Virus record (IMG/VR): IMGVR_UViG_3300008451_000399
Location: 1-64,000 of that record
Strand: one strand, 5' to 3'
DNA length: 64,000 nt
Origin: a virus
Numbering within the stretch: the stretch's first letter is position 1; each line of letters begins with the position of its first letter. Of the stretch, positions 6,685 through 63,402 are shown one piece after another. Under the pieces are notes generated by a model. The model saw only the letters and a list, made by a program, of their open reading frames with translations. It was not told the DNA's origin and did no database searches. The translations under genes and the position numbers were made by a program.

Positions 6685-6710
6685 AGACATCTTTAAAAAG
6701 GAAAAATAAA

Positions 6711-7376
6711 ATGGACTTGCAGACACAATCAGTTTGGGGCTTAAACAACCAAGAAGAAATTGTAGTAAAGTTGGGCACTGGTGGAGACTCTGTTGTTGGA
6801 GTCCTTCCTACTAATCAGATACCTGTTGATGCAGATGGTAAACTCGTGCTAAGAATACCAGAACTGGACTCAATAGGTTCTAGCCCTCTCAGTACAGGGT
6901 TCTTCGACTATAACGACAGTGCTACAGCCATAACACCTATTAGTGTGTTGGCGAATACATGGACTAAACTAACTAACAATGGTTTGGGAGCATTTACTAA
7001 CAAGACGTATAAACCCGCTGGTGTGGCTGAAGTATGGAATACTACAACGAATAGGTTCGAGTGGGGAGACTTGGTACTTGGTGACACGTTAGATATTAGG
7101 GCTGATATTGATATAATTACATCTGTTCCAAACCAAATAGTTAATTTGGCGGTATTCAATGCAGTGGGAACTGCAGGAGAGTATGAAATTGACCTAATGC
7201 CTGAGACAACCTATAAAACTGTGGGTATTAAGAAGATCATTACATATATTGGTATCTATATGGGTGATACCAATACGTTGAACAACCCTTCAGAGATACG
7301 GATTAGGAGTGACGCAGCTTGCTCAGTTAAAGTCAATGGGTGGTATGTGAGGTTGTTATTAGTGGGACAGCACTAA
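6711..7376 (+). CDS. stand-alone putative virion or surface protein (beta-sandwich, fibre-tip-like)
   Basis: 221 aa, T/G/N/V-rich beta composition, AAGGAA RBS like virion genes, own promoter and terminator. Confidence 0.6.
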   Translation: MDLQTQSVWGLNNQEEIVVKLGTGGDSVVGVLPTNQIPVDADGKLVLRIPELDSIGSSPLSTGFFDYNDSATAITPISVLANTWTKLTNNGLGAFTNKTYKPAGVAEVWNTTTNRFEWGDLVLGDTLDIRADIDIITSVPNQIVNLAVFNAVGTAGEYEIDLMPETTYKTVGIKKIITYIGIYMGDTNTLNNPSEIRIRSDAACSVKVNGWYVRLLLVGQH

Positions 7377-7415
7377 AAGAAAAGCCCCTTCCTTGCGGTT
7401 GGGGCTTTGTTGTTT
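7376..7415. terminator. bidirectional rho-independent terminator
   Basis: aaagcccc...ggggcttt stem between convergent genes, A-rich on the left and T-rich on the right. Confidence 0.75.
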
Positions 7416-7438
7416 ACACTTCAGGTGGTGATAAGTAA

Positions 7439-8182
7439 TCAATCATAAGCTGTTTCTAAGTCTTTAAAAGCCCTAGTAGCAGGGTCGTACTGCGGTGTAA
7501 GTACTTCCCCATCAACTTTCTTCTTACGTGGCTTAGATGGCTTTTTAAGCGCCTTCTGAGCGGCTTTCTCGAGCTTTTCTACTTGCTCCTTATACCAAGC
7601 ATTGCGTTGCTCAGAACGTTCCATCCAGCCTTGAGCATCCAACCAGATATTCTTTCCTAGCATCATTTCATCAAACTCTTGATCTGACAAGAATCCTGAA
7701 TAGATTTCCTTGTAATATTCGTACAAGAACTTCTTGTCAAAATCACTCTTAGCATGGTACTCATTTAAGTTACCAAAACTACCACTAGAACCGTTATGGA
7801 TCAAGCTGTTAAAGTTACGAGACAGTTCAAAACTATCTGCTTGTAATAATATGTGTGTTCCTGCTGAATGCACTCCTCCAGAGGCTACGATGTGTATTGG
7901 ACAAGCACATTTCTCCATAGCGTGAATGAATCCACCTGATACATCAACTGAACCTCCACAACTTTGCAAGCTAATAACTACTTGGTCGCCCTCTTCAGCA
8001 GCTTCAAGGGCTTCAATACCCATCGTCACTTGTTCCATACTAATCACAGGAGCATGGAAGTTAATCTTGAACACTCCGTTTTTATTAGGTGTGTACGAAA
8101 CCGTAACCCTATTGGTATCTTGATAACCGTAGTAGTCGCCATCATTGTTCTGTGGCTTACTTTTATTGAATCGCTCTTTCAT
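7439..8182 (-). CDS. clpP: ClpP-like serine protease
   Basis: ISLQSCGGSV, VHSAGTHILLQAD (catalytic Ser), LIHNG (His), IWLDA motifs. Confidence 0.8.
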   Translation of the reverse strand: MKERFNKSKPQNNDGDYYGYQDTNRVTVSYTPNKNGVFKINFHAPVISMEQVTMGIEALEAAEEGDQVVISLQSCGGSVDVSGGFIHAMEKCACPIHIVASGGVHSAGTHILLQADSFELSRNFNSLIHNGSSGSFGNLNEYHAKSDFDKKFLYEYYKEIYSGFLSDQEFDEMMLGKNIWLDAQGWMERSEQRNAWYKEQVEKLEKAAQKALKKPSKPRKKKVDGEVLTPQYDPATRAFKDLETAYD

Positions 8183-8973
8183 GTGTTCTCCTCTGAGTAG
8201 TAGTACATTTTAACAAGGGCTTTATTAAGTCCTCCGCGCATATCGTCATTGGGCATAAAAGTTACTACACCAATGTCGTCCTCCAAAGCCTCTAAATCTG
8301 AATCATCCATGTATGTAGGAGCATCTTCTAACACTTTAGTAATACGATTGAGGGTCAATGTCATGCCACTCTTACCACGAAGGTCATGCTGTCGTTCGTC
8401 CCCTGTCATAATGTAAGTTGTGCCTTTACCGATACGAGTAAGTAGGAGTTCCATGTCAGACTCGGTAAGGTTTTGAGACTCTTCGATAATTACTACACTA
8501 TTCTCGATAGAAAACCCTCGTAAGTATTCAAAGGCTTGCATTTCTACAACTTTCTTTTCGATACAATAGCTTAAAAATCCTGCACCCATGAAAGTTTCAA
8601 GATGTTTAATTGTCTGTACAAAATAAGGAGCTAACTTTTCCTCTAAACTACCCTTCAGTAATCCCACAGTGTTACCAGCAGCAACAGCAGGTCGTAACAA
8701 CCAAATTTTATCAACTTCCTTAGATTTGATAAGGTTAGCAGCCCACCAAGCAGCGATCATACTCTTACCAGAGCCACTACTACCACGAAGCACTACCACT
8801 TTCCTACCCTCCTTAAGAAGTCTTACCGCGATGTGTTGATTCTCAGTAGCAGGGTGAAATTTAGGAACTACTTGTTGTTGACAGGTTTCTACATCTACCT
8901 TGAACTTGTCTTTTGTTTGTGGTTTTGAGTCCTGATTATTTTTACGATTACCAAAATTTAATCTTTTAGCCAT
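8179..8973 (-). CDS. phoH: PhoH-like ATPase
   Basis: GSSGSGKS Walker A, RPAV, GLLKGSLEEK..PY, YLRG.S, IIEESQN, LLTRIG, TGD..Q.D. Confidence 0.92.
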   Translation of the reverse strand: MAKRLNFGNRKNNQDSKPQTKDKFKVDVETCQQQVVPKFHPATENQHIAVRLLKEGRKVVVLRGSSGSGKSMIAAWWAANLIKSKEVDKIWLLRPAVAAGNTVGLLKGSLEEKLAPYFVQTIKHLETFMGAGFLSYCIEKKVVEMQAFEYLRGFSIENSVVIIEESQNLTESDMELLLTRIGKGTTYIMTGDERQHDLRGKSGMTLTLNRITKVLEDAPTYMDDSDLEALEDDIGVVTFMPNDDMRGGLNKALVKMYYYSEENT

Positions 8974-9002
8974 GAAGGATTCTCCTACATTAATATAATC
9001 TT

Positions 9003-9027
9003 CCTACCCACTTGCTGCATGGGTAGG
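9003..9027. other. intergenic hairpin (terminator or processing site)
   Basis: cctaccca...tgggtagg perfect 8-bp stem. Confidence 0.45.
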
Positions 9028-9037
9028 TTTGTTACGT

Positions 9038-9304
9038 TTATTTATTAAAGCTATGTAATACTTGTACTTCAATTAACTCTTCAAGAGTTGTATCTAATGT
9101 TGCTGCAACTCGTTCAATCTCTTTAAAAACTTCTTTTGGGAGCCGTATTGTAACAGGAAAAAGAGTTTCAGGTTGTTTCACACGAACTCCGCTATCAATT
9201 AAATCATAGTTTTCTGCAAACACTGTGTAGTTGTCTGCTTTTGTACGGATTGTATCTCCTGTATGTGGATTGAAATCTGTCCTGCTTTTACCGAAATTTC
9301 CCAT
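9038..9304 (-). CDS. ribbon-helix-helix-like DNA-binding protein
   Basis: C-terminal VTIRLPKEVFKEIERVAATLDTTLEELI. Confidence 0.55.
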   Translation of the reverse strand: MGNFGKSRTDFNPHTGDTIRTKADNYTVFAENYDLIDSGVRVKQPETLFPVTIRLPKEVFKEIERVAATLDTTLEELIEVQVLHSFNK

Positions 9305-9969
9305 TATTCACCTTTCGCTTTTATTAAATAGTTTTTTGATAAATTAGATAACGCAAGTAATACTCTTTCATCTATCGCAGAATTCTTTAGTGATTCTAAC
9401 ATTTCTAAGCATATCTCAGATTTTCTTTCGAGGTACTTAATGTGCGCTTCCTCTTGAGTCTTGAAACACCCTAAATACTCTAAATTCCCATTATTCTGTA
9501 TGCAAGCTTTTATTAATTTAGACTCAGCTATTGGGAACGTACCAAGAAGAAACTTACTACCCTTACTCCTCGGTTTAACTAAAAGGGAATTCAAATACTG
9601 AGGGACAAAGACACAATTATCCTCAGAGTAAAATCTATTACCCTCGAATAAGATGTCTTTATCTAACTCCCACCCCTCTTCAAAGTACCCTTTCTGATGC
9701 TGACACCATTCTGCAAAATACTGGAAATCTTCAAAATTCTCAGAACACCAAACATCCCTATACGCTGGATTTTTAACAGAACCAAAGTTATTACACCTCT
9801 TCCTTAAATTGTACCAAATACTTGAAGACTTTGTAAAAATTGATCTTTTATCTATTGTAAAGTTCTTTACCCACTTTCCGTCAATTTTAAAGTATGGCTT
9901 GACTTTGGAATTTCCATTACTCGTTGTCACTCCAAGTACCTCCTTCTGAATTAATCTTACTATTTTCAA
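9304..9969 (-). CDS. HNH homing endonuclease
   Basis: WYNLRKRC...FQYFAEW...WELDKDIL..GN..YSEDNCVFVP..LN, then YLGCFKTQEEAH AP2-like tail. Confidence 0.85.
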   Translation of the reverse strand: MKIVRLIQKEVLGVTTSNGNSKVKPYFKIDGKWVKNFTIDKRSIFTKSSSIWYNLRKRCNNFGSVKNPAYRDVWCSENFEDFQYFAEWCQHQKGYFEEGWELDKDILFEGNRFYSEDNCVFVPQYLNSLLVKPRSKGSKFLLGTFPIAESKLIKACIQNNGNLEYLGCFKTQEEAHIKYLERKSEICLEMLESLKNSAIDERVLLALSNLSKNYLIKAKGE

Positions 9970-10105
9970 TCTTCAAGACAAGATTGCCATACTCATCTGT
10001 CCATTCTACTAATACTCCACCTTCTTTACATGACTCTAACACATCATATAAATCAGACTCAAGTAGTTGCTGCTTATTTTTCTTGCCCATTTGTCTTACG
10101 TCCAC
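9917..10105 (-). CDS. hypothetical protein
   Basis: 62-aa ORF in the operon. Confidence 0.45.
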   Translation of the reverse strand: MDVRQMGKKNKQQLLESDLYDVLESCKEGGVLVEWTDEYGNLVLKIENSKINSEGGTWSDNE

Positions 10106-10313
10106 GTTTTATTGTTGGAGCTTCTAGCTCTTCTTGTTGTTCTTGTGCAGCTCCACGAATTAATACAGCGTTGTATTGCTGATCAATCCAAGGATACTCT
10201 GAAGCTTCCTCTGAGATGATAAAGCCCTCTTTAAACTTAGCTTGTAGTTCTAATGCAAATCCACCAACTGAGCTTTCACGGATTGTAATTTTTTCCAAGT
10301 TATTTCCTTTCAT
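10074..10313 (-). CDS. hypothetical protein
   Basis: 79-aa ORF with a basic C-terminal tail. Confidence 0.55.
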   Translation of the reverse strand: MKGNNLEKITIRESSVGGFALELQAKFKEGFIISEEASEYPWIDQQYNAVLIRGAAQEQQEELEAPTIKRGRKTNGQEK

Positions 10314-10316
10314 TAA

Positions 10317-10397
10317 TTATTCAAAATCTTCTTCAAGCATTAAATGCTCTACAAAGTCGTTCACATCAAGATATTCTAGTTCTGTGTATTCGTCCAT
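10317..10397 (-). CDS. 26-aa acidic peptide (not in ORF track)
   Basis: MDEYTELEYLDVNDFVEHLMLEEDFE; CAGGAGA RBS; first ORF after a promoter. Confidence 0.55.
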   Translation of the reverse strand: MDEYTELEYLDVNDFVEHLMLEEDFE

Positions 10398-10446
10398 TGT
10401 GTTCTCCTGTGTTGTTCAGAAATTAAAACATTTCTTTAGAAATTAA

Positions 10447-10475
10447 ACTATATCACCTAAACTGAAGAATTGCAA
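10447..10475 (-). promoter_or_regulatory. sigma70-type promoter (TTGCAA-17-TATAGT)
   Basis: ttgcaa at 10470-10475 and actata at 10447-10452. Confidence 0.65.
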
Positions 10476-10534
10476 GTATTTATTTTACAGACTTTAGATA
10501 TTATTGTGATAACATATTTATTTTCACAAGGGGC

Positions 10535-10563
10535 TTGACAACAGTGAAGATATGGTTTATACT
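10535..10563 (+). promoter_or_regulatory. sigma70 promoter (TTGACA-17-TATACT) for the packaging operon
   Basis: Hexamers with a 17-bp spacer upstream of terS. Confidence 0.8.
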
Positions 10564-10593
10564 TCATATTATAAGTAAATAAGCAGGAGATGT

Positions 10594-10974
10594 ATGAGTG
10601 CAGACGTAGATAATTCAGTAGGAGAGATAGTAAGGACAGGTGTTCAGAGTAAGAAGAACTCTATCACTATTCAGAAGAGGTTACTAAACAAAGAAAACAA
10701 ACCATCTATGGCTTACTTGGTATCTGTGAGAGATGACCCCACAGCAAGTAGGAAAGATAGGATGGAAGCAGCGAAGTTTCTCATGACTATGCACATGGAA
10801 TCTATCAAAGTCGAGTCTGCGGAGAAGGCTAGGAATAAAGAGTTTGCTGCGAAGCATCATGAATTACTTTTAAGTATTCAACGTAATGGTGGTATTATTG
10901 TGGATGATAGTGATGACGATGATGAGTCAAGTCCTCTACTTATGTTCGATCAAATCATGGATGTGGATGAATAA
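10594..10974 (+). CDS. terS: putative terminase small subunit
   Basis: 126 aa, first gene upstream of terL, helical with acidic C-terminus; assignment mainly positional. Confidence 0.6.
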   Translation: MSADVDNSVGEIVRTGVQSKKNSITIQKRLLNKENKPSMAYLVSVRDDPTASRKDRMEAAKFLMTMHMESIKVESAEKARNKEFAAKHHELLLSIQRNGGIIVDDSDDDDESSPLLMFDQIMDVDE

Positions 10975-10980
10975 AATCTT

Positions 10981-11500
10981 ATCAACCATGTGTTGATGTA
11001 GTCTCTCGCAAATATTAACTTGATACTGTCACTCGACACTTCAAGGTTTGTGAGGGAAGCTAGGCTCTGAGATATGTTGGCTTGCCTCCCCTCAGAGGGT
11101 TCCTTCTTAGCAAGGACAAGAATGCGTGGTTGCAGTCACCGTGTAGGATTGAGGAGTTCCTTATAAACCTCGTTACGTACCTTTAGTTTAATGTTAGAAC
11201 ATACGCCTGCAGCGTAAAGTGAGAGGTCAAAACTCTCAGGGTACTCCATAGATTGCAAATACAACGGCTCTCCGTCATTCTCCTGCCATGCCCTCCTCAT
11301 GGTTCTCCTGTGACGTTGTAGAGCCGTTCTGTTTGCAATTTTTCGCAACAGTGTTTCGTCCCATATCTGGTAATTAGCGCCGTAAGTATCGTGGAACACT
11401 GTTGCATTCGGTATTTGCAAATAAAGAATATCAAGTATTTATAAGTACGAAAGTTAATGCAGGTGCGTGGTTGCAAGTTAGTAACCACTTATTCTGTATT
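10981..11500 (+). ncRNA. candidate large structured non-coding RNA or structured terL leader
   Basis: At least 7 hairpins or multibranch domains; many G-U pairs that work only on the + strand; no credible + strand ORF. Confidence 0.65.
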
Positions 11501-11526
11501 GGCGAATGTGAATTTAAAGGAGTAAA

Positions 11527-12966
11527 ATGAGTAAAAAAGAACGTAAAGTTCTTGCTCCAGCGTCAGAAGCACATAGGAAGTTTCTTAATTGTAAATCTAA
11601 TTTTGTTATTTTCGGAGGCGGGGCAGGTTCGGGCAAATCGCACCAAGCGTTAATGTTAATTTTAAAATACATTCACGACCCATACTTCAGAGGTGTATTT
11701 ATCCGCGAAACATCCACACAGCTTTCTCAGGCTGGTGGTTTGTTCATGGAAGCACAAGATATGTGGAAAGATTACGGAGCAAAGTTTAAGACACATCCTC
11801 AGATGACTGCCACATTTCCAAGTGGAGCACAAGTACAGTTCAAAGTGTGCCAAGCAGATAGAGATATCAACAACTTCGACGGTGGGCAGTTTTCACTGGT
11901 GTGCTTCGATGAGGCGCAATGGCACAGTGAAACTCAAATCAAGTATCTAGAGTCTCGTATTCGTTCTAAAGCACAAGCACCTCACCAACTTATCTGTACA
12001 GCCAACCCTTCAAGAGCTTCTTACCTCTACCAATTCGTGCAACCATATCTTGATATGGAAACAGGTATTCCTATTCCTGAATTGTCTGGTAAAGAGAGAT
12101 ACTACGCTACTTATGGTGGTGTTACGGTAACAGCAGATACAAAAGAAGAGTTACTTGAGAAGTACGGAGATAAAGTACAAGCTCAAACATACACTTATAT
12201 CTCTGCTACGGTTAAAGATAACCCGATCATGAAAATCCTGAATCCAAACTATGTAGCGCGTTTGGAGAACTTGAAGCGTACAGAACGTGAACGCCTCTAC
12301 TTGGGGTCATGGCACGCCAAAGAAGAGTCACGAGGATTTTTTAAGAGAGATTGGTGTGAAGTAATTACACAACTTCCAGACGATATTGTATCTACTGTGC
12401 GTGGTATGGATATTGCTGGTAGCTTACCTTCTGAAGCCTACCCCGACCCTGATTGGACTGCATCTGTAATGATGTCTAAGACAAAATCAGGACATTACAT
12501 TATACACCACGGAGAGAGATATAGGTCTTTAATCAATGGGGTAATGGAACACATTGCAGAGACAGACAGAAGAGATAAAGCAATAGGACATTTTCCTGCT
12601 GTGTATTTACCTGAAGACGTTGGGGTAGCAGCAAAGGCAGCAACGATGTTTTTTGTTAAAACACTAATTGAGTCTGGTGTAGATGCAAGGATTGATAAGT
12701 CTGGTGGCACGAAGAGCAAATTGCACAGGATGCAACCCTTTCTTACATTGGCAGAAGCAGGCTTTGTTAAAATTTTAGACGATGGTAGTTGGGACACAGA
12801 GCCTTTGTTGTCAGAATTGGAAGATTTTGTAGATGGGAAGCGCCAGCAAAAAGATGATTACTGGGATGCAACTGGTACAGCATGTAAGGCATTGATGAGA
12901 ACACAGACACTGCCCACATTCAGCCTACCCTCCCTAACAAAGCCATCCCCAGTTCCAAGAATATAA
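11527..12966 (+). CDS. terL: terminase large subunit
   Basis: GGGAGSGKS Walker A, CFDEA Walker B, TANP motif, GMDIA and KDDYWDA nuclease motifs. Confidence 0.95.
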   Translation: MSKKERKVLAPASEAHRKFLNCKSNFVIFGGGAGSGKSHQALMLILKYIHDPYFRGVFIRETSTQLSQAGGLFMEAQDMWKDYGAKFKTHPQMTATFPSGAQVQFKVCQADRDINNFDGGQFSLVCFDEAQWHSETQIKYLESRIRSKAQAPHQLICTANPSRASYLYQFVQPYLDMETGIPIPELSGKERYYATYGGVTVTADTKEELLEKYGDKVQAQTYTYISATVKDNPIMKILNPNYVARLENLKRTERERLYLGSWHAKEESRGFFKRDWCEVITQLPDDIVSTVRGMDIAGSLPSEAYPDPDWTASVMMSKTKSGHYIIHHGERYRSLINGVMEHIAETDRRDKAIGHFPAVYLPEDVGVAAKAATMFFVKTLIESGVDARIDKSGGTKSKLHRMQPFLTLAEAGFVKILDDGSWDTEPLLSELEDFVDGKRQQKDDYWDATGTACKALMRTQTLPTFSLPSLTKPSPVPRI

Positions 12967-12972
12967 CCCGTA

Positions 12973-13000
12973 ATTATACCATAACTAAAGTATCTTGCAA
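12973..13000 (-). promoter_or_regulatory. antisense-facing sigma70-type promoter (TTGCAA-16-TATAAT, extended -10)
   Basis: ttgcaa at 12995-13000 and attata at 12973-12978; points into the 3' end of terL. Confidence 0.5.
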
Positions 13001-57378: not shown

Positions 57379-57672
57379 TTATTTGTTGTCCACTAACTCA
57401 AAATCATTAATCCATCTCCCACGCTCTACACCCAAACGCTTCATGACAACAGCCATTACAGCGTCTTCAAATTCTTGTTGTGATGAGAATACAATCATGT
57501 CAGGAATTTCGTAAGACTCTTCAAATCTCGTATGCTCAAACCATCTATTTACACCTTCATCAGATCGTATCATGTAGTTCAATCCATCGTTGTGCAATAC
57601 TTTATAGGAATTATCGCTAGTTAAATCGCCATCCCAACCACTACTATCAATACACTTCACGTATTTAGCCAT
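57379..57672 (-). CDS. hypothetical protein (small SH3-like N-terminal domain)
   Basis: VKCID....LT....YKV......I..D.G....F...RFE. Confidence 0.55.
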   Translation of the reverse strand: MAKYVKCIDSSGWDGDLTSDNSYKVLHNDGLNYMIRSDEGVNRWFEHTRFEESYEIPDMIVFSSQQEFEDAVMAVVMKRLGVERGRWINDFELVDNK

Positions 57673-57985
57673 TTTGTTTAGCCTCCTTAATTAACATTTC
57701 CAAGTGAGCTGCCATGTCTTCGTAGGTATAATATTTACCAGCTTTTTCATCATCCGTATAGCTGGTCGGTTCTCCAATATCCCTCATACCCTGATTAGCA
57801 AACTCCAAAGCTTTCTTCAACATTTCCTCTGCTGAGGGTTTTGGAGGCTTACATTTCGGCATAGGAGGGTAGTGCGTAGGTGATGGCACAGAGAATTCCA
57901 ATGTGGCTCTATCATCATGTACACAAAGATCACCTCTGTCAGTATCACCTATACTGTGTAATTTATTTACTTTCATGTAGTCCAT
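57665..57985 (-). CDS. hypothetical protein
   Basis: 106-aa ORF with AGGAGA RBS. Confidence 0.55.
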   Translation of the reverse strand: MDYMKVNKLHSIGDTDRGDLCVHDDRATLEFSVPSPTHYPPMPKCKPPKPSAEEMLKKALEFANQGMRDIGEPTSYTDDEKAGKYYTYEDMAAHLEMLIKEAKQNG

Positions 57986-57998
57986 GTCAGTTAATCTC

Positions 57999-58562
57999 CT
58001 AGTCTAAAATTGTTTTAGCCATTGCATCGAAGCTTCCATAATACGTCATCTCAGGAAACTTAGCAAGAATTTTCTGAATATATTGATGCTCATTGTTGTA
58101 AATGTCATTCGTTTTGTAAATAGCTTTAAACTTCACAGAACGTAAGAAGTCTTTACCGTAATGAGCTTTACCATTCTTCCACCAAGCTTTACAAATACTC
58201 AAAGGAAACTTATCTATGACACTGTTCCACGTTGGCTTACTCATACGCATAAGTTGTACCTTAACACCGTGAATAGAAGTTTCATACACAGCTTTTAGGT
58301 AAGGATTTTTCTTATACCACTCTGGGATATTCCCTCCAAGTTTTGTCTCAGTGATTTCAAAACCAGCTTTCTTTAACATATCTTCCATACGATACATAGT
58401 AGAAACTTGTGGACAATGAAAGAACAAGTCAATATCAGAAGCTTCTTTATCAAAGTACCAATCACGCACAGCTCCTCCAGCTACGATGCTGTAAGGGTCT
58501 ATTAAATACATCATGTCAAGTGCTTTGTTGGCTGCTTCTTTTTGTATATCTATTGTATTCAT
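57999..58562 (-). CDS. nucleotidyltransferase (CCA-adding / poly(A) polymerase head-domain-like)
   Basis: VAGGAVRD......ASDIDLF catalytic motif, VQLM, FPLSIC. Confidence 0.8.
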   Translation of the reverse strand: MNTIDIQKEAANKALDMMYLIDPYSIVAGGAVRDWYFDKEASDIDLFFHCPQVSTMYRMEDMLKKAGFEITETKLGGNIPEWYKKNPYLKAVYETSIHGVKVQLMRMSKPTWNSVIDKFPLSICKAWWKNGKAHYGKDFLRSVKFKAIYKTNDIYNNEHQYIQKILAKFPEMTYYGSFDAMAKTILD

Positions 58563-58900
58563 AAAATCTCCAAAAGTCTAGTATTATTACGATAGTATTC
58601 TGCTACCCACTCTTTAGGAATCTCTTTACCAGCTTCCAAATAACGTATCACAGCTTCTTGTATTTCTTTCTGACGATGTTCTAAAACAATGAATTCTGGT
58701 CGTAGTCCTAGTGGTGGCTTCTCAACTACGTCATTTGACAAAACTTCCTCAAATCTCTCTTTAAAGAATGTAGACTCTTTGCCCCCATCGTCAACTATCC
58801 AAATACAACCTTGATTTCCTAAGTATGGTTTGCTCTCTTTGTAAATCTTACCTTTTGTGATAAGACCTTCGTGAGTTTCTAGTGCTTTAAATTGTCGCAT
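58559..58900 (-). CDS. hypothetical protein
   Basis: SH3-like N-terminus plus KPPLGL.P...R..EI..A..RY...IP.EW. Confidence 0.6.
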   Translation of the reverse strand: MRQFKALETHEGLITKGKIYKESKPYLGNQGCIWIVDDGGKESTFFKERFEEVLSNDVVEKPPLGLRPEFIVLEHRQKEIQEAVIRYLEAGKEIPKEWVAEYYRNNTRLLEIL

Positions 58901-58901
58901 A

Positions 58902-59210
58902 TCAATCCTTCTTAACTAACATTAATAAATAACTATCTCTACTATCATTCATCCTAATCTCCTCTTTAATAGCCTTCTGAATTGCTGCTAATTGTTTGAG
59001 GGATTTGGAGTTCTTTTGAACACTCTCTAGTTTCCTAGTTTTGTCTGCGTAGAGAGCTTTAAGATACATAGAGTTATCTCCAAGACATAAATCTGAAATC
59101 TCCATGTTAATCAATCTGAGTTTATCTTTTAATACACCTTGATTATATGTTAACTCGTTAATAAGCTCTTTATTCCTTGCAAGCATTGATTGTAATATGC
59201 TAGTTTTCAT
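58902..59210 (-). CDS. hypothetical coiled-coil protein
   Basis: 102-aa ORF with AGGAGA RBS. Confidence 0.55.
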   Translation of the reverse strand: MKTSILQSMLARNKELINELTYNQGVLKDKLRLINMEISDLCLGDNSMYLKALYADKTRKLESVQKNSKSLKQLAAIQKAIKEEIRMNDSRDSYLLMLVKKD

Positions 59211-59219
59211 TTGTTCTCC

Positions 59220-60116
59220 TTATTTATTAAACTCAGGGAATATTGTAGCGAAATATTCTTTGATTGTCAAATTATTTTGTCCATAATAAACAGTATCACC
59301 ACTCCTACTGCTTGGTGCAAAGTATCTCTGAACAGCATTAATATAAAAACTGTATTCATGTTGATATGTGGTATCCCAATCCTTTACGAATCGCTTCACA
59401 TTTAATTGTTCTAGAGCAAGGTTATCGAATGAGACAATATCAAAAATCTTAAACAACTCGTGTATTTGTCTGTACCATTTACGATGCGAAGCAGAAACAA
59501 TTTTGACTTTACCTAAATTGAACCCAAAATCTTTCTCTCCTAATACAAGAATCTTCTTAACTCCATTGTCACGTAATTTCTTAACATCTTCGATGTCATC
59601 AATACCAGCAATTACGTGCACAACCATGTTAGAGTATTGCGTCAAAGCTACTGGAATATCTCTCATACCTTTACGATAACTGATACCTAAGCCTTTTACA
59701 GCTTTACTGAGAATTGCCAAGTGAATGTTGATAATATCTCTGTGTACCAACCCTTGATTAACTGTCAGATTCACAACAAAGCCCTTATCTCGACATTTAT
59801 ACAAAAACTTAAGTAATTCATCTGTAACTTCGTTAGCTCCAATAGCAAGCTCTATGCCAGATGGAAGGTTTTTAAGAACTTCAAACAACTCTGTAAGATT
59901 AGCATCACTACCATCTGTTGTTGCAGATTCATGACAGAATCCACAAATAGCTTTTCCTGTAGATTTGTTCAAACCAAATGCGCATTTCTCTGACACTCGT
60001 ATATCAATGTTTAAAGGATATGTAAGTTTAATATCTCCCTCACACTCAATAACACGAGTACCATCATTGTACAATTTAATATCTGCGTTTCCATTTTGGT
60101 AGTGATGTAACAACAT
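59220..60116 (-). CDS. radical SAM superfamily protein with CX12CX2C cluster motif
   Basis: YQNGN...DGT...P.NIDI....C(12)CGFCHE...ELAIG..E...NLTVNQ...GLGIS...V.HVIAGI...K.LVLG.K..G...SFDNLA.EQL. Confidence 0.8.
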   Translation of the reverse strand: MLLHHYQNGNADIKLYNDGTRVIECEGDIKLTYPLNIDIRVSEKCAFGLNKSTGKAICGFCHESATTDGSDANLTELFEVLKNLPSGIELAIGANEVTDELLKFLYKCRDKGFVVNLTVNQGLVHRDIINIHLAILSKAVKGLGISYRKGMRDIPVALTQYSNMVVHVIAGIDDIEDVKKLRDNGVKKILVLGEKDFGFNLGKVKIVSASHRKWYRQIHELFKIFDIVSFDNLALEQLNVKRFVKDWDTTYQHEYSFYINAVQRYFAPSSRSGDTVYYGQNNLTIKEYFATIFPEFNK

Positions 60117-60133
60117 TATTTCTCCTCTCTCTA

Positions 60134-60583
60134 TTAATGGTTGTCGTTGTCAGTTTCAATCCAAGAACTACTATCAAAGATAAATGACTTCAATAATGAT
60201 TTATCTTCAAAAATGTAGTGCAAGTCAGCACTTTCTACAGATTGGTGGTCAATATACCCGTAGCCATCGTTCCATTTCTTCCCAAATACTTCATGCGTTA
60301 CAGCACCAGCTCCTGTGTGCTCACATACAACCTCTTGCAAAGTTTTTATAAACTCATCCCTCTTGTCTCCACTCCAATCCATCGCATAAATGTAAGCGTA
60401 TGCTAAACGAGCTTCGGGATATGAATATGTTTCTTGACTCCAACCAAACTCATGAGAATCGTCTACAATAATTAGATTATCCTCATTTGGTGTGATTCCA
60501 TCGTAAGTTCCACTTGCACCAATTGACAGACTGTGGCATGAGCTACTGTTTGTTTCAAATACTCCGTGACGTACTAATTTCAT
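60134..60583 (-). CDS. FETNSSS-motif protein, radical SAM neighbour
   Basis: VRHGVFETNSSSCHSLSI, EFGW, GYIDHQS, FIF......DNDN. Confidence 0.75.
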   Translation of the reverse strand: MKLVRHGVFETNSSSCHSLSIGASGTYDGITPNEDNLIIVDDSHEFGWSQETYSYPEARLAYAYIYAMDWSGDKRDEFIKTLQEVVCEHTGAGAVTHEVFGKKWNDGYGYIDHQSVESADLHYIFEDKSLLKSFIFDSSSWIETDNDNH

Positions 60584-60593
60584 TATTTTCTCC

Positions 60594-60917
60594 TTATTTC
60601 AATTCTTTAGGAATCTTGGGGCAGTTATTATGTTCCCACCATTCACTACCGTCATATTCTCCACGACTACTCCAAGTACCACCTACATACCAGATCGTGC
60701 CATATAACTCTTGTCCACCAAACCCTGAGTCATACACAAAATCTAAAGAGGACAAGAATTTCTCGTAATCTTCGTCTGAGTAACCAACCTTCAATCGACA
60801 TACATCTATGTCTTCATCGTCGTAGATGTAGCCAATCTGTACTTCAGCAGCTTTAACTATCTTCTTGGAATCTTTTATGTGCATTAAAAACTCTTCTTTA
60901 GCATTTTTGTCACTCAT
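60594..60917 (-). CDS. conserved phage hypothetical protein
   Basis: LDF.YDSGFGGQELYG.IW...GTW..RGEYDGSEWW. Confidence 0.7.
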   Translation of the reverse strand: MSDKNAKEEFLMHIKDSKKIVKAAEVQIGYIYDDEDIDVCRLKVGYSDEDYEKFLSSLDFVYDSGFGGQELYGTIWYVGGTWSSRGEYDGSEWWEHNNCPKIPKELK

Positions 60918-60927
60918 TATATTCTCC

Positions 60928-61131
60928 TCAGTCTGTCACAACAATCTTCAAACCATCGAACCCATAAACTGCAGGGAATCTATCCATACAGTCACTAGAA
61001 ACCACTTTTGTAATGTCTGTAATAGTGATGTTCTTTGGAGTATATCCTAAGTCTTGAATAACAAGTTGCTTTAATTGCTCCATGTTTAAAGTGAATGTTT
61101 TAGTTGTTCCTACGCTATTTAAAATTGACAT
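60928..61131 (-). CDS. hypothetical protein
   Basis: 67-aa ORF with AGGAGA RBS. Confidence 0.55.
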   Translation of the reverse strand: MSILNSVGTTKTFTLNMEQLKQLVIQDLGYTPKNITITDITKVVSSDCMDRFPAVYGFDGLKIVVTD

Positions 61132-61143
61132 TTGTTTTCTCCT

Positions 61144-61554
61144 TTATTCCGCTAATAAATTCATCTGCTTAGAATACTTCAAAACACGCTTCATGTCAAG
61201 TCGTTTCAAGCTTTCATTTAAATTGCATTGTGTGTCATGCATCTTGACAATCTTGGCAAGAGCATTCCCTTTCACCTTAGCAATGTAGTCTTCGTAGCTT
61301 TCGTCAGCTACTTTTGTAATAGCTCGCACAGCATTAACAACATTATCTTCAAACAATCCGTACAATACATCTAAGCTACAATTCGTATCTTCAAGAATAT
61401 CATGGAGAATAGCAATAATTGGGAGTCTGTCGTCAACGTGACAGCTCACACTATCTGCTACAGCTAGTAGATGCACAGTATAAGGCTCATTGCCATACTT
61501 TTGTCCAGAGTGAAATTTTGTTGCGATTGTTAGGGCTAGTTCGTAGTCTGTCAT
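61144..61554 (-). CDS. HD-domain (p)ppGpp hydrolase-like protein (SpoT/Mesh1 type)
   Basis: A.KFH.GQ....EPY..H, A.LHDILEDT, V..ITK, VK..D...N; start placed at MTDYEL (CAGGAGA RBS). Confidence 0.85.
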   Translation of the reverse strand: MTDYELALTIATKFHSGQKYGNEPYTVHLLAVADSVSCHVDDRLPIIAILHDILEDTNCSLDVLYGLFEDNVVNAVRAITKVADESYEDYIAKVKGNALAKIVKMHDTQCNLNESLKRLDMKRVLKYSKQMNLLAE

Positions 61555-61582
61555 GATGTCTCCTGTAAATTGAACAGACTCT

Positions 61583-61611
61583 ACTTTATAGGAGTTGGTA
61601 GAATCTGTCAA
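61583..61611 (-). promoter_or_regulatory. sigma70-type promoter (TTGACA-17-TAAAGT)
   Basis: tgtcaa at 61606-61611 and acttta at 61583-61588. Confidence 0.55.
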
Positions 61612-61620
61612 GAGGTTTGT

Positions 61621-63393
61621 TTAGAATGTTGCAGGGTTGGCTTCCAAATAATCATCCAAGTCCCATAACTTATGCTTCTCATTCTCATAGTAATACTTAC
61701 CAACAATTCCAGTATCTCCGACACCACGTGCCTTAGATAACTTCATTAATGTTGTATTCTTATCTAAATCAGAATCTGCTTCTTTATCTCGCATAATAAT
61801 AATGTTGATGCCACCAGATTTGAAAATAGTAGAGCTTCCCATAATATCTTCCTCTGATAAGTCTGCACCTTTAGAATTAGCCTTCTGTCCTTGTCCATTC
61901 TTGCGAACGTGATTTACATTGACAAACATTACTCCTGTCTTCATCCAACCTTTCATCCAACCCATGAACTTCGCTTGTTCATCCTCTCCAAGCATATCAA
62001 ACACATCTTGCAGTGGGTCAATGATAATTATCTTACAACCTAGACTAACAATCAAATACTCGATACGATCTTTCATTGTTTCAGCTTCAGCATCAAGAAT
62101 GTAGAAACGAGGGTTCCCATCACTGTCATAAAACAACTCATCTTGTAATTGAACAATATCTTCTGAGTCAATGAAGTTAAGACGGTCTTCTACTGTCTCA
62201 AATAAATTCATTTTGACTTCGGCGTAGGATGACAGAAGATTTACTCCATACTCACCATCTCCCGTTTCCATTGGGACAATTCCAACCTTACTATTTTCAT
62301 TCATAATCCAATGCAAGATCATTGCATCTACATAAGTCGATTTTCCAGTACCTGAGGCAGAAATTAGGTTTAGGATACAAGATGCTGGAATTCCTCCTCG
62401 TAGCTTCTTCTGTAACTTGTGCATAAAAGGTGGAAGCGTAATACGAGGCATACTCAGAAACTCTCGCATTTTATCTTTGATGTCCGTACTAGCTGTTACA
62501 CCTGAAGGTACATACTTCTTAGCTTTCAAGAAGTCTTGGATAAACTCTTGTTGCTTGCCAGCTTTAACATAATCATCAGCATCCTTGTAACGCATACGCA
62601 TCACCCAAGCCTTACCTTTAGGTAAAACTTTAATGATTTGTTCTGTAGCTTTCTGTCCAGCTTCATCTTCATCCATACACACAATAATCTTCTTGAATTG
62701 ATTAAAGAATTCATACTGAGCTTGCACTTGCTTGTGTGCTCCGCTTTCTCCTAGTGTAGAACATACAACTGCAGTTGTTTCATACTGCAAAGCATTACGT
62801 TGTGTCTGATTGTCCAAAAGCATTTGATATGTGCTCAAAGCCTTCGTTTCACCTCCTGTAATGATACAAGTGTTTGTGTGTGTCTTGAAACGGAATTGAA
62901 ACACCATATCGCATTCCTTCCCAACCTGTCCTACAGGATGTGAGAAATCTTTGGGGAATGTGCGAGTGCGATAACCTGATAATTCCCCGCCAATTGTTGT
63001 TGGAACATATTGCTTAACAGGCTCACCTGTCTCTTCATCATACGAATAACGCACTCCGAAGAAATTGTTTGTGGCTGTCTTAATACCTCTGTACCCTTTA
63101 CCATCTGTGCCAGTGTATCCCTTAATACGTTCATTCTCTTCTGGTGTAATTTTCTCTCTTGTACTCACTTCACTCTCCTCATAATAATCCTCTTCCTCAT
63201 CCCATCCCATAGCGTCACGATGCTCTTGACTAGCAATAGTCCAGCCACAACTCCAACAGTGGGCAGACTCTGTACTGGCATAGACATGTAAATTGTTTCT
63301 GGAATTATCTCTGCCTTCTCGTATACAACGAGGACAACCTGTTTTGTGCTCTCGTGTTAAATCAATTCCATACTTCTCTGCTATTGCTGACAT
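61621..63393 (-). CDS. DNA primase-helicase (T7 gp4-like)
   Basis: CPRC...CWSC Zn finger, TOPRIM GGE and MDED..G, KDA; SGTGKST, IIIDP, HVRK, GSS.I, KAR..G.TG. Confidence 0.93.
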   Translation of the reverse strand: MSAIAEKYGIDLTREHKTGCPRCIREGRDNSRNNLHVYASTESAHCWSCGWTIASQEHRDAMGWDEEEDYYEESEVSTREKITPEENERIKGYTGTDGKGYRGIKTATNNFFGVRYSYDEETGEPVKQYVPTTIGGELSGYRTRTFPKDFSHPVGQVGKECDMVFQFRFKTHTNTCIITGGETKALSTYQMLLDNQTQRNALQYETTAVVCSTLGESGAHKQVQAQYEFFNQFKKIIVCMDEDEAGQKATEQIIKVLPKGKAWVMRMRYKDADDYVKAGKQQEFIQDFLKAKKYVPSGVTASTDIKDKMREFLSMPRITLPPFMHKLQKKLRGGIPASCILNLISASGTGKSTYVDAMILHWIMNENSKVGIVPMETGDGEYGVNLLSSYAEVKMNLFETVEDRLNFIDSEDIVQLQDELFYDSDGNPRFYILDAEAETMKDRIEYLIVSLGCKIIIIDPLQDVFDMLGEDEQAKFMGWMKGWMKTGVMFVNVNHVRKNGQGQKANSKGADLSEEDIMGSSTIFKSGGINIIIMRDKEADSDLDKNTTLMKLSKARGVGDTGIVGKYYYENEKHKLWDLDDYLEANPATF

Positions 63394-63402
63394 TATCTCT
63401 CC

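What the first reader, a model, noticed from the sequence alone, without database searches (positions are those of the whole stretch)
6697..63402. RBS dichotomy: virion genes mostly avoid GGAG, early/middle genes use AGGAGA
Seen: AAGGA followed by A, U or C precedes genes at 6711, 15386, 16231, 16758, 17174, 18298, 20971, 21348, 21888, 28279, 36974 and 37456, plus ssb and nrdA/nrdB. AGGAGA precedes more than 20 - strand genes (e.g. starts at 8182, 8973, 38224, 38599, 40395, 47486, 49630, 51387, 59210, 60116, 60583, 60917, 61131, 63393). Exceptions on the + strand: terS and 19648 (AGGAGA), terL and portal (AGGAGT/C). Established: T4 RegB cuts GGAG in early SD sequences, and CsrA binds GGA. Inference: timing or abundance is set post-transcriptionally through the RBS, either by the anti-SD hairpin or by a RegB-like nuclease.
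Basis: partly seen in the sequence, partly recalled or inferred. Interest (0 to 1): 0.7.

Follow-up and report, generated by a model that had tools for sequence, protein, structure and literature searches.

The report
Two ribosome-binding-site grades in phage
In this uncultured freshwater phage and its relatives, the virion genes and a few abundant replication proteins use a ribosome-binding site one base shorter than that of most other genes, a conserved split that might be read by a small RNA hairpin encoded beside the packaging genes.

Summary
All 27 quoted sites are as described. Independently of gene calls, AGGAGA-N3-8-ATG occurs 36 times in the window (3.6 expected), 34 of them on the - strand. 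AAGGA[ACT]-N3-8-ATG occurs 32 times (13.3 expected), 19 on the + strand.

By gene, GGAG precedes 5 of 27 virion-block genes against 47-51 of 72 - strand genes. AAGGA[ACT] precedes 11 of 27 against 7-9 of 72. The two classes share one register and differ by one base.

The split recurs in nine relatives but not in Felix O1. It is gene-specific: major capsid 8 of 9 orthologues, tail tube 5 of 5, SSB 3 of 3 keep AAGGA[ACT]; portal keeps GGAG in 6 of 7.

No homologue of RegB, CsrA, RegA, S21 or the S1 domain was found.

The "anti-SD hairpin" is real. It lies at 11257-11334 (+), is supported by covariation, and shows three exposed CUCCU words complementary to AGGAGAA. Its link to the split is inference.

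Most likely the split reflects selected translation-output classes. A late anti-SD RNA that masks GGAG sites is the main rival. Earlier notes of this scan describe the same hairpin family on other phage DNA.

The parts
10594..37761 (+). Virion and lysis gene block. It holds terS-like, terL, portal, protease, a scaffold-position gene, decoration protein, major capsid, connector proteins, tail tube, tape measure, tail proteins, endolysin and a spanin-like gene. Two homing or HNH endonucleases are inserted at 14599-15396 and 18720-19673.
   Evidence: PHROG matches. RBS classes of its 27 called genes are listed: 11 AAGGAH, 5 GGAG, 7 other G-rich, 4 weak.
17161..17166 (+). AAGGAA ribosome-binding site of the major capsid gene (start 17174).
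   Evidence: The same class is found in 8 of 9 orthologues, although the surrounding leader sequences differ.
16745..16750 (+). AAGGAA site of the head decoration gene (start 16758).
   Evidence: 6 of 7 orthologues are AAGGAH.
21337..21342 (+). AAGGAA site of the major tail (tube) gene (start 21348).
   Evidence: 5 of 5 orthologues are AAGGAH.
15376..15381 (+). AAGGAT site of the head maturation protease gene (start 15386).
   Evidence: 4 of 7 orthologues are AAGGAH and 3 are GGAG.
16221..16226 (+). AAGGAC site of the gene in the scaffold position (start 16231).
18288..18293 (+). AAGGAA site of gene 18298-18723.
   Evidence: Orthologues mostly differ: 6 of 8 are GGAG.
20960..20965 (+). AAGGAA site of gene 20971-21327.
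   Evidence: 5 of 5 orthologues are AAGGAH.
21875..21880 (+). AAGGAA site of gene 21888-22292, which lies in the tail chaperone position.
28267..28272 (+). AAGGAA site of gene 28279-29754, the first gene after the tape measure.
36961..36966 (+). AAGGAA site of the endolysin gene (start 36974).
37445..37450 (+). AAGGAA site of gene 37456-37761.
6698..6703 (+). AAGGAA site of the lone + strand gene 6711-7376. A perfect sigma-70-type promoter-like site lies at 6656-6684.
50376..50381 (-). AAGGAA site of the Gp2.5-like ssDNA-binding protein gene (49714-50367).
   Evidence: 3 of 3 orthologues are AAGGAH.
42003..42008 (-). AAGGAT site of nrdB (41043-41999).
43837..43842 (-). AAGGAA site before the internal ATG 43833 of nrdA. 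The true start is ambiguous; the first ATG is at 43887.
368..63403 (-). 34 AGGAGA-N3-8-ATG sites on the - strand. Most lie before called replication, nucleotide-metabolism and small early-type genes.
   Evidence: One search lists each site. 31 called - strand genes of the window have AGGAGA in their leader.
10585..10590 (+). AGGAGA site of the terS-like gene, one of 5 GGAG sites in the virion block.
11517..11522 (+). AAGGAG site of terL.
13065..13070 (+). AAGGAG site of the portal gene.
   Evidence: 6 of 7 orthologues are GGAG.
19637..19642 (+). AGGAGA site of the head-closure gene 19648-20046.
32239..32243 (+). GGAGG site of the 945-aa tail protein gene (start 32251).
11257..11334 (+). Conserved RNA hairpin in the terS-terL spacer. 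It shows three unpaired anti-SD-like words: UUCUCCU on each side of an internal loop and CCCUCCU in the apical loop.
   Evidence: MFE -27.9 kcal/mol, z = -6.8. Seven family members score 86-95 bits with model R1. 18 pairs are 100% paired over 106 cells, 9 of them with changes on both sides, and 0/500 shuffles reach this. The + strand is the more stable in 7/7 members.
11177..11245 (+). tRNA-like element just upstream of the hairpin.
   Evidence: Rfam RF00005, 48.7 bits. ARAGORN did not call it.

Best explanation
The genome writes its ribosome-binding sites in two grades that sit in the same register and differ by one base.

- Grade 1 is (A)AGGAG followed by A or G. It has 6-7 nt of complementarity to the CCUCC anti-SD core, with a median predicted pairing of about -8.7 kcal/mol. 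It precedes most replication, nucleotide-metabolism and small early-type genes.
- Grade 2 is AAGGA followed by A, U or C, set in a leader almost free of G and C (median about -5.6 kcal/mol). It precedes the proteins needed in the largest amounts: capsid, decoration, scaffold-position protein, protease, tail tube, SSB and ribonucleotide reductase. It also precedes several other virion and lysis genes.

The most likely reading is that selection keeps each gene in the grade that gives it the right translation output. Strong GGAG sites help early messages compete with host mRNA. The short SD in an A-rich leader serves the bulk proteins.

Shown: the two grades, their association with gene class, their shared register, and their conservation gene by gene. 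Inferred: that the grades differ in output, and that the + strand block is expressed late.
For: Shared register. The GGA-to-start spacing has its mode at 6 nt in both classes.

Leader properties. AAGGAH leaders hold more A (0.50 against 0.39 of 25 nt, p = 3e-5). They fold slightly less over -30..+30 (-4.1 against -5.2 kcal/mol, p = 0.05). The direction is the same in the 5 other genomes tested. No extended motif beyond A/T richness is seen around AAGGA.

Link to abundance. Within the virion block, all 5 genes whose products are high-copy are AAGGAH, against 6 of 22 others (p = 0.0057). The high-copy label comes from general knowledge of siphovirus virions. The - strand AAGGAH genes with an assignable function are SSB, nrdA and nrdB.

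Gene-specific conservation, although the leaders themselves have diverged: capsid 8/9, tail tube 5/5, gene 20971 5/5, decoration 6/7 and SSB 3/3 are AAGGAH; portal is GGAG in 6/7.

Persistence without a hairpin. AAGGAH enrichment in the virion block holds in all 10 clade genomes, including G009, where no hairpin was found in the block.

Literature.
[quoted passage not shown] - The phage comes from a freshwater metagenome.
Against: Abundance alone does not explain the block effect. Low-copy virion genes also avoid GGAG: 5/22 against 76/131 non-virion genes (p = 0.0025).

Felix O1, of the same wider group and of similar G+C, shows no split, and its capsid gene uses GGAG. So this is not a general ribosome rule.

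In E. coli reporters a 6-nt SD was the most efficient at 37 C (abstract of PMC2176067). A 5-nt SD for the most abundant proteins is therefore not the simple expectation.

Non-G after AAGGA is the compositional default in an A-rich leader. Its conservation is thus weaker evidence of selection than the excess of G in the other class.

No expression, proteome or host data exist for this phage.
Confidence: 0.45

Rival explanations
1. Anti-SD RNA switch. The virion-strand hairpin at 11257-11334, possibly released by processing next to the tRNA-like element, exposes three CUCCU words. These pair with AGGAG(A/G) ribosome-binding sites in trans and mask them once the RNA accumulates. Translation of early and middle genes is thereby turned down. 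AAGGA[A/U/C] leaders pair too weakly to be masked and keep the ribosomes. On this reading the RBS split is the evolutionary footprint of the switch.
For: The hairpin is a real, selected RNA.
- Seven family members score 86-95 bits with model R1.
- 18 pairs are 100% paired over 106 cells, 9 of them with changes on both sides, and 0/500 shuffles reach this.
- The inner stem exists in three compensating versions.
- The + strand is more stable than its complement in 7/7 members, because of 1-4 G-U pairs.

The stems vary, while the three unpaired words keep CUCC in 6 of 7 members.

UUCUCCU is the exact complement of AGGAGAA.
- AGGAGAA precedes 32/131, 32/123 and 32/123 non-virion genes in the three fully fetched genomes that carry the hairpin, and 0/27, 0/28 and 1/34 virion genes.
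- It precedes 2-15% of non-virion genes in seven other clade genomes (pooled p = 1e-12).

Predicted pairing with the internal-loop word is -9.6 kcal/mol for GGAG leaders and -4.8 for AAGGAH leaders. Complementarity of 7 nt or more occurs in 41/131 non-virion leaders against 2/27 virion leaders (p = 0.009).

Stable hairpins of other sequence with an unpaired [CU]CUCC lie inside the virion block 0.2-2.7 kb upstream of terL in 9 of 10 clade genomes. In intergenic DNA there are 17 in the virion-sense orientation against 3.4 expected, and 0 in the antisense orientation against 5.4 expected.

G009, the one genome without such a hairpin in the block, is also the one without GGAG depletion (9/33 against 44/147, p = 0.84).

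Precedent: alpha-r14/NfeR1 sRNAs carry three redundant unpaired anti-SD words and silence mRNAs by occluding the RBS (passages of PMC10746234).
Against: No transcript, processing site or target has been seen.

The three genomes with the sharpest split are close kin, so the correlation is close to a single observation.

The divergent hairpins of the other genomes are not detected by the covariance model. Single hits there could be chance or terminators. Felix O1, which has no split, also has one UCUCC-loop, terminator-like hairpin before terL.

AAGGAH on capsid, tail tube and SSB is conserved irrespective of the hairpin.

One RNA with three sites would have to be in large excess to mask more than 80 leaders.

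The loops resemble the 16S anti-SD, so any SD would pair with them to some degree.

A near-consensus sigma-70-type promoter precedes terS, so the RNA need not be late.

One family member (L228) has lost the third CUCC.

The genes just downstream of the hairpins have mixed RBS classes, so a simple cis role is not supported either.
Confidence: 0.3
2. RegB-like nuclease. A phage-encoded endoribonuclease cuts GGAG in early ribosome-binding sites, as T4 RegB does, and virion genes avoid GGAG to escape it.
For: The pattern resembles T4.
- GGAG is the commonest SD of the non-virion genes.
- It is followed by A in 46 of 83 cases and by AA in 34.
- This recalls the strong RegB site GGAGRAYARAA (passages of PMC3014915).
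- About 130 small genes of the phage have no assigned function, so a non-homologous nuclease cannot be excluded.
Against: There is no match to PF10715 (REGB_T4) at E <= 1 in six frames of the complete record. The phage also encodes no S1-domain protein.

GGAG and AGGAGA are not depleted inside virion coding sequence relative to synonymous-codon shuffles: GGAG 70 against 82.5 +/- 7.5 and AGGAGA 4 against 6.6 +/- 2.5, with similar ratios in the other genes.

Five virion-block genes keep GGAG, among them terS, terL and portal.

In T4 itself, late GGAG sites exist and are simply resistant. RegB therefore does not by itself predict avoidance.
Confidence: 0.05
3. No function. The split is a by-product of history or composition: the virion module and the replication modules have different ancestries, or simply different A-richness and gene spacing.
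For: The genome is mosaic. The capsid protein is 64% identical to that of a myovirus of the Ounavirinae, while the tail is of the siphovirus kind. terL is only 33-34% identical in relatives whose capsid is 71-97% identical.

Non-G after AAGGA is the expected base in A-rich leaders.
Against: The split recurs in ten genomes of 37.5-48.8% G+C, with capsid identity down to 30%. RBS class follows the orthologue while the leader sequences differ.

Both motifs are far more frequent before ATG than in shuffles.

The G+C of the two blocks is similar, 0.35-0.41.
Confidence: 0.12

Closest known systems
Phage T4 RegB system: GGAG Shine-Dalgarno sites of early mRNAs are cut by a phage endoribonuclease with ribosomal protein S1 (review PMC3014915; passages read)
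   Same: GGAG-type sites followed by A-rich sequence dominate one temporal or functional gene class. The other class largely uses other sites. The idea that RBS sequence encodes class-specific post-transcriptional fate is the same.
   Different: No RegB homologue is present. The phage belongs to a different lineage, with an Ounavirinae-like head module. The class that escapes is defined by a one-base-shorter SD in the same register. No cleavage data exist.
alpha-r14 / NfeR1 ('cuckoo') small RNAs of Alphaproteobacteria: three hairpins each with an unpaired CCUCCUCCC anti-SD word, functionally redundant, silencing mRNAs by RBS occlusion (PMC10746234; passages read)
   Same: The terS-terL hairpin shows three unpaired pyrimidine words containing CUCC(U). 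The stems vary by compensating changes while the words are kept.
   Different: Here there is one hairpin with two words in an internal loop and one in the apical loop, not three hairpins. The words are UCUCCU and CCCUCCU. Apart from tRNA, no Rfam family matched the spacer below E = 1; the only other hit was a microRNA model at E = 1.4, 16 bits against a gathering score of 200. The element is phage-encoded and lies inside a packaging operon. Its own promoter and terminator are not established.
C-rich-loop regulators of Firmicutes (S. aureus RNAIII, RsaE; B. subtilis RoxS); recalled, no paper read here
   Same: Exposed C/U-rich loops that pair with G-rich Shine-Dalgarno sequences of several targets.
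   Different: Those are cellular regulators with specific regulons. Here the potential targets would be a whole class of phage genes. No homology was tested.
A-rich or A/U-rich translational enhancers with short SDs in bacteria (PMC7043885, passages; PMC2176067, abstract)
   Same: The AAGGA[A/U/C] class is a GG core in a leader almost free of G and C, more A-rich and slightly less structured than the GGAG class.
   Different: Those studies concern E. coli genes. A genome-wide partition by gene class within a phage is not described in what I read.

Membership tests
T4 RegB / GGAG early-mRNA inactivation | A RegB endoribonuclease gene (Pfam PF10715) | tested here: not met
   0 matches at E <= 1 in six frames of the complete 86,411-bp record.
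T4 RegB / GGAG early-mRNA inactivation | GGAG in early SDs with an A-rich 3' context (GGAGRAYARAA) | tested here: inconclusive
   GGAG precedes 83 of 131 non-virion genes. The next base is A in 46 and the next two are AA in 34. The full 11-nt consensus was not scored.
T4 RegB / GGAG early-mRNA inactivation | Cleavage between G and A of GGAG soon after infection | not testable with these tools
   No RNA run holds the sequence.
alpha-r14 / NfeR1-type anti-SD small RNA | Several unpaired anti-SD words displayed on hairpins, kept while the stems vary | tested here: met
   Three unpaired CUCC-containing words are present in 6 of 7 family members. 9 of 18 scored pairs show changes on both sides.
alpha-r14 / NfeR1-type anti-SD small RNA | Match to a curated RNA family model | tested here: not met
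   cmscan of 10950-11540 at E <= 10 returned only tRNA and a chance microRNA hit at E = 1.4.
alpha-r14 / NfeR1-type anti-SD small RNA | Three separate hairpins each with the identical word CCUCCUCCC | tested here: not met
   There is a single hairpin, with words UUCUCCU (twice) and CCCUCCU.
alpha-r14 / NfeR1-type anti-SD small RNA | Trans silencing by RBS occlusion | not testable with these tools
   Only predicted duplex energies are available: -9.6 kcal/mol for GGAG leaders and -4.8 for AAGGAH leaders.
CsrA/RsmA with a CsrB-type GGA-loop sponge | A CsrA gene, or an RNA with GGA in hairpin loops on the functional strand | tested here: not met
   No PF02599 match. The strand that shows CUCCU loops is the more stable one in 7/7 hairpins. 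A host CsrA cannot be assessed because the host is unknown.
Ordinary SD / anti-SD tuning with an A-rich leader | Both classes complementary to the CCUCC core at the same spacing | tested here: met
   The GGA-to-start spacing mode is 6 nt in both classes, in 3 of the 6 genomes examined including this one; in the other 3 the modes differ by 1-2 nt between the classes.
Ordinary SD / anti-SD tuning with an A-rich leader | The weaker-SD class has a more A-rich, less structured leader | tested here: met
   A fraction 0.50 against 0.39 (p = 3e-5). Folding of the translation-initiation region -4.1 against -5.2 kcal/mol (p = 0.05).
Ordinary SD / anti-SD tuning with an A-rich leader | The classes differ in protein output | not testable with these tools
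   No expression data. High copy number is assigned from general virion knowledge.

The most novel reading that the evidence does not exclude
A clade of 84-94-kb freshwater and marine phages runs a translational early-to-late switch with an RNA, not a protein. Hairpins encoded at the head of the virion gene block mimic the ribosome's anti-SD. They mask the AGGAG(A/G) ribosome-binding sites carried by most non-virion genes. Bulk virion proteins, SSB and RNR escape because their sites stop one base short (AAGGA[A/U/C]). The genome-wide RBS split is the footprint of that switch.
Probability: 0.27. Interest if true: 0.85.

Novelty: new variant of a known kind. Interest (0 to 1): 0.6.

Why it matters
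Class-specific ribosome-binding sites are textbook for T4, where a nuclease reads them. Here the same kind of partition is found in an unrelated, uncultured phage clade without that nuclease. It differs by a single base and is conserved gene by gene.

Either way the result gives practical rules. It helps with start-site calling and with expression design in these phages. It also defines a simple test: swap one base, with and without the hairpin.

Tried and rejected
Close DNA relatives among deposited phages: none found by megablast.

Host identification.
- Tail-fibre protein search gave only short collagen-like matches to Gordonia phages, which are uninformative.
- The capsid scan of 185,579 species genomes found no relative.
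- Sequencing runs show only a freshwater metagenome that may be the source itself.
- The host remains unknown. A Gram-negative host is only suggested by the 155-aa endolysin without a binding domain and by the Gram-negative hosts of capsid relatives.

Protein factors. RegB, CsrA, ribosomal protein S21, T4 RegA and the S1 domain have no match at E <= 1 in the phage. Most of the roughly 130 small proteins were not scanned against Pfam.

Avoidance of GGAG or AGGAGA inside virion coding sequence: not seen against synonymous shuffles. A first apparent fivefold difference came from downstream RBSs lying in gene ends.

An extended motif around AAGGA, such as a late promoter or processing site: none beyond A/T richness.

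A cis role of the hairpin on the next gene: downstream RBS classes are mixed.

Finding more hairpins.
Only 1 of these was a true family member, plus a collagen-like repeat.
- The terS scan gave 4 loci, 3 of them with new hairpin variants.
- Model R1 did not reach the divergent hairpins of G001, G002, G004, G005, G008 or M1. Their kinship rests on position and loop word only.

The - strand ORF 11300-11136 over the hairpin: rejected as a gene, because its ATG lies in the inner stem and is absent in the G003-type and G006-type versions.

A T4 run through the same pipeline as a positive control was not done. The T4 statements rest on passages of PMC3014915.

Literature.
- The search (4 papers) gave nothing on early/late SD differences in phages. 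Passages of PMC11052298 were read and found not relevant.
- The search (anti-Shine-Dalgarno + phage-encoded + small RNA) gave 1 unrelated paper.
- Supplementary files were not consulted.

Rows dropped.
- I removed 9 doubtful ORFs (11136-11420, 11402-11530, 22346-22729, 37708-37866, 78619-78738, 79080-79334, 80979-81155, 83274-83453, 86181-86393) and added 36208-36609.
- Searches used a stricter score cut-off, giving 158 genes. That set keeps 22346-22729 and lacks 36208-36609.
- One search counts only BLASTP best hits whose alignment begins within 12 residues of both N-termini.
- Searches count only hairpins passing stated energy and unpaired-motif thresholds.

Full report
WHAT THE WINDOW IS. 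The window is the first 64 kb of an 86,411-bp virus record rated complete. The best holder among sequencing runs is a freshwater metagenome, which may be the source itself. G+C is 0.375.

Genes lie in strand blocks:
- a - strand block at 1-10313;
- a + strand block at 10594-37761;
- a - strand block from 37970 to about 76.4 kb.

PHROG matches show that the + block is the virion and lysis module. It holds terL, portal, head protease, decoration protein, major head protein, head closure, neck, tail terminator, major tail protein, tape measure, tail proteins and endolysin. Two homing or HNH endonucleases are inserted in it. That this block is expressed late is inferred from function and is not shown. 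Near-consensus sigma-70-type promoter-like sites occur in both kinds of block.

The closest named relative is Pseudomonas phage vB_PsaM_M1 (Ounavirinae, from seawater), with 64% capsid identity. There is no close DNA match among deposited phages.

THE OBSERVATION. Every quoted site is as described (terS, terL and portal).

Without any gene calling:
- AGGAGA-N3-8-ATG occurs 36 times against 3.63 +/- 2.02 in shuffles; 34 are on the - strand and 2 on the + strand.
- AAGGA[ACT]-N3-8-ATG occurs 32 times against 13.34 +/- 3.25; 19 are on + and 13 on -.
- The strand split has p = 1.2e-6.

With my own gene calls (a codon log-odds model trained on long ORFs; starts chosen by three rules), the whole-genome table of 162 genes gives these counts:
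- GGAG within -19..-4: 5/27 virion-block genes against 58/113 (first start), 74/113 (first ATG) or 81/113 (SD-energy rule) genes of the main - strand blocks; p = 2e-3 to 8e-7.
- AAGGA[ACT]: 11/27 against 6-9/113; p = 1e-5 to 1e-4.

Within the window alone the figures are 5/27 against 47-51/72, and 11/27 against 7-9/72.

Median predicted pairing to a generic anti-SD tail is -5.6 against -8.7 kcal/mol under the first-ATG and SD-energy rules; under the first-start rule it is -5.6 against -7.3, which is not significant (p = 0.11).

The nrdA assignment depends on which start is used.

ANATOMY OF THE TWO CLASSES. The distance from GGA to the start codon has its mode at 6 nt in both classes. The classes therefore sit in one register and differ in the base after AAGGA: G against A, U or C.

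AAGGAH leaders are richer in A (0.50 against 0.39) and fold slightly less. Aligned on GGA, they show almost no G or C in the flanks and no further conserved motif.

In the virion block the remaining genes use still weaker or other G-rich sites.

Beyond the window, the + strand block at 77-83 kb mostly uses G-run sites such as GAGGG or GGGG.

CONSERVATION. I fetched eight complete or near-complete IMG/VR relatives, with capsid identity 30-97% and G+C 0.385-0.488. I ran them and M1 through the same pipeline.
- AAGGAH is enriched in the virion block in all 10 genomes, with p < 0.05 in 7.
- GGAG is less frequent there in all 10, with p <= 0.05 in 7. In G009 the difference is nil (9/33 against 44/147).
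- Pooled: GGAG 86/318 against 693/1267, and AAGGAH 95/318 against 141/1267.
- With M1's deposited CDS: AAGGAH 10/36 against 4/147 (p = 1.6e-5), and GGAG 14/36 against 91/147 (p = 0.015).

In Felix O1, using deposited CDS, there is no split. GGAG is 8/29 against 30/97 (p = 0.82), AAGGAH is 3/29 against 3/97, and its capsid gene uses GGAG.

Gene by gene, the class follows the orthologue although the leaders differ in sequence:
- AAGGAH: capsid 8/9, tail tube 5/5, gene 20971 5/5, decoration 6/7, SSB 3/3.
- GGAG: portal 6/7.
- Less constant: protease (4 AAGGAH, 3 GGAG) and gene 18298 (2 AAGGAH, 6 GGAG).

WHAT THE CLASSES TRACK. All five virion genes whose products are needed in hundreds of copies are AAGGAH, against 6/22 other virion-block genes (p = 0.0057). 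These five are the protease, the scaffold-position gene, decoration, capsid and tail tube; their stoichiometry is taken from general knowledge.

The - strand AAGGAH genes with a recognisable function are the Gp2.5-like SSB and both RNR subunits. This favours abundance.

Low-copy virion genes nevertheless avoid GGAG too (5/22 against 76/131, p = 0.0025). There is thus also an effect of the block as a whole.

THE PROPOSED READERS.

Nuclease. There is no RegB family match. There is no GGAG or AGGAGA depletion inside virion coding sequence against synonymous shuffles. According to the T4 review, RegB sites are mostly intergenic and late T4 GGAG sites are resistant rather than absent. The coding-sequence test is therefore weak, but nothing positive supports a nuclease.

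Other proteins. CsrA, T4 RegA, ribosomal protein S21 and S1-domain proteins are likewise absent.

Hairpin. The 552-nt terS-terL spacer holds a tRNA-like element (Rfam, 48.7 bits) at 11177-11245. It also holds a hairpin at 11257-11334 on the virion strand.
- The hairpin has a long outer stem.
- A symmetric internal loop carries UUCUCCU on each side.
- A 6-bp inner stem leads to an apical loop CCCUCCU.
- MFE is -27.9 kcal/mol with z = -6.8.

Seven family members were found: the window, L005, L227, L228, L230, G003 and G006. They score 86-95 bits with a model built from six of them.

On the six-sequence alignment, the 18 outer and middle pairs are paired in all 106 cells. Nine pairs show changes on both sides, and 0 of 500 shuffles reach these values. 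The inner stem occurs as GCCAUG/CAUGGU, GGCACG/CGUGCU or CGUG/CACG.

The virion strand is the more stable one in 7/7 members, by 3.7-6.6 kcal/mol, owing to 1-4 G-U pairs. This argues against a CsrB-like GGA-loop RNA on the other strand, and against the small - strand ORF.

Apart from tRNA, no Rfam family matches below E = 1.

LINK BETWEEN HAIRPIN AND SPLIT (INFERENCE). UUCUCCU is the exact complement of AGGAGAA.
- AAGGAGAA-type leaders with the 7-mer precede 32/131, 32/123 and 32/123 non-virion genes in the three fully fetched hairpin genomes. They precede 0/27, 0/28 and 1/34 virion genes.
- In seven other clade genomes the 7-mer precedes 2-15% of non-virion genes.
- Predicted pairing to the internal-loop word is -9.6 kcal/mol for GGAG leaders and -4.8 for AAGGAH leaders. 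This gap is somewhat wider than the one computed for the 16S tail (-9.2 against -5.6).

Other clade genomes carry sequence-unrelated stable hairpins with an unpaired [CU]CUCC inside the virion block, 0.2-2.7 kb upstream of terL. This holds in 9 of 10 genomes. Over all intergenic DNA there are 17 such hairpins in the virion-sense orientation against 3.4 expected from shuffles. There are none in the antisense orientation against 5.4 expected.

Four of the 17 lie outside the virion block. In early-block spacers this orientation reads the complement of early RBSs. The positional clustering of the other 13 is therefore the informative part.

G009 lacks such a hairpin in the block and also lacks GGAG depletion.

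Points against the link:
- The three sharpest genomes are close kin.
- The divergent hairpins are not statistically tied to the family.
- Felix O1 has one terminator-like UCUCC-loop hairpin before terL yet shows no split.
- L228 has lost one word.
- The genes downstream of the hairpins have mixed RBS classes.
- The AAGGAH rule for bulk proteins holds regardless of the hairpin.
- Nothing shows that the RNA is made.

VERDICT. I rank the readings as follows:
1. Selected translation-output classes read by the ribosome: 0.45.
2. An anti-SD RNA that masks GGAG-type sites, with AAGGAH as the escape form: 0.30.
3. History or composition: 0.12.
4. A RegB-like nuclease: 0.05.

COMPARISON WITH WHAT IS KNOWN. 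The pattern works like the T4 early-GGAG arrangement but fails its defining membership test, since there is no RegB.

The hairpin works, on paper, like alpha-r14/NfeR1 RNAs, whose three unpaired anti-SD words redundantly occlude ribosome-binding sites (passages of PMC10746234). It is not a member of that or any other Rfam family.

A-rich leaders that promote initiation, and a preference for shorter SDs in the cold, are documented for E. coli.

I found no paper describing a phage anti-SD RNA or an early/late SD partition outside T4 with the searches. These cover open-access text only.

Earlier notes of this scan describe the same hairpin family in related phage genomes and reach a similar "plausible but unshown" view. 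They are not independent evidence.

Noticed in passing
window 11177-11245 (+): A tRNA-like element lies in the terS-terL spacer (Rfam tRNA, 48.7 bits). ARAGORN does not call it, and its anticodon loop looks shortened. The relative G006 has a normal-looking tRNA ending in CCA at the same place; G003 has none. Felix O1 keeps its tRNA cluster in the same slot before terL.
   Followed up: partly
window 53579-53805 (-): A group I intron (Rfam RF00028, 77.2 bits) lies between the two DNA polymerase ORFs 53768-55939 and 53237-53566.
   Followed up: no
window 13009-13037, 6656-6684, 31137-31165, 10535-10563, 20047-20075 (+): Perfect or near-perfect sigma-70-type promoter-like sites (11-12 of 12 matches, three of them with an extended -10 TG) lie inside or at the head of the virion block. 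They precede portal, gene 6711, terS and the neck gene. Host-polymerase transcription of 'late' genes is therefore possible, and timing is not settled.
   Followed up: partly
genome 77042-83147 (+), beyond the window: A third RBS flavour: this block of small genes mostly uses G-run sites (GAGGG, GGGG, AGGGTG). GGAG precedes only 2 of its 16 genes.
   Followed up: partly
window 10594-37761 compared with M1 (L003): Mosaic virion module. The head genes resemble an Ounavirinae myovirus (capsid 64% identical). The tail is of the siphovirus kind, with a 1841-aa tape measure, a 150-aa major tail protein and no sheath match.
   Followed up: partly
L077 (G003) about 7940-8400; L092 (G006) 19740-21541: terL of relatives with 71-97% identical capsids is only 33-34% identical to this phage's terL. 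It appears split: two ORFs in G006, and an AAAGGAG-led short first exon followed by structured RNA in G003. This suggests module exchange and an intron or intein-like insertion.
   Followed up: no
window 14599-15396 and 18720-19673 (+): A homing endonuclease and an HNH endonuclease are inserted between head genes. Their sites (GGGGTGA, GGTGGA) belong to neither main class.
   Followed up: no
coding sequence of the whole genome: AAGGAA is depleted inside coding sequence relative to synonymous shuffles. Virion genes have 3 against 12.1 +/- 3.0, and other genes 33 against 48.3 +/- 5.6. This is consistent with avoidance of internal start signals.
   Followed up: partly
window 10320-10408 (-): An uncalled 25-codon acidic ORF has an AGGAGAAC site. 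It lies in the divergent spacer between the - strand block and terS.
   Followed up: no
L088-L089 (G005) 62375-62531 (- strand of that record): Three tandem hairpins with loops UUUCUCCUCUC, UUUCUCCUCC and AUUCUCCUG lie at the head of the virion block of a distant relative (capsid 50% identical).
   Followed up: partly
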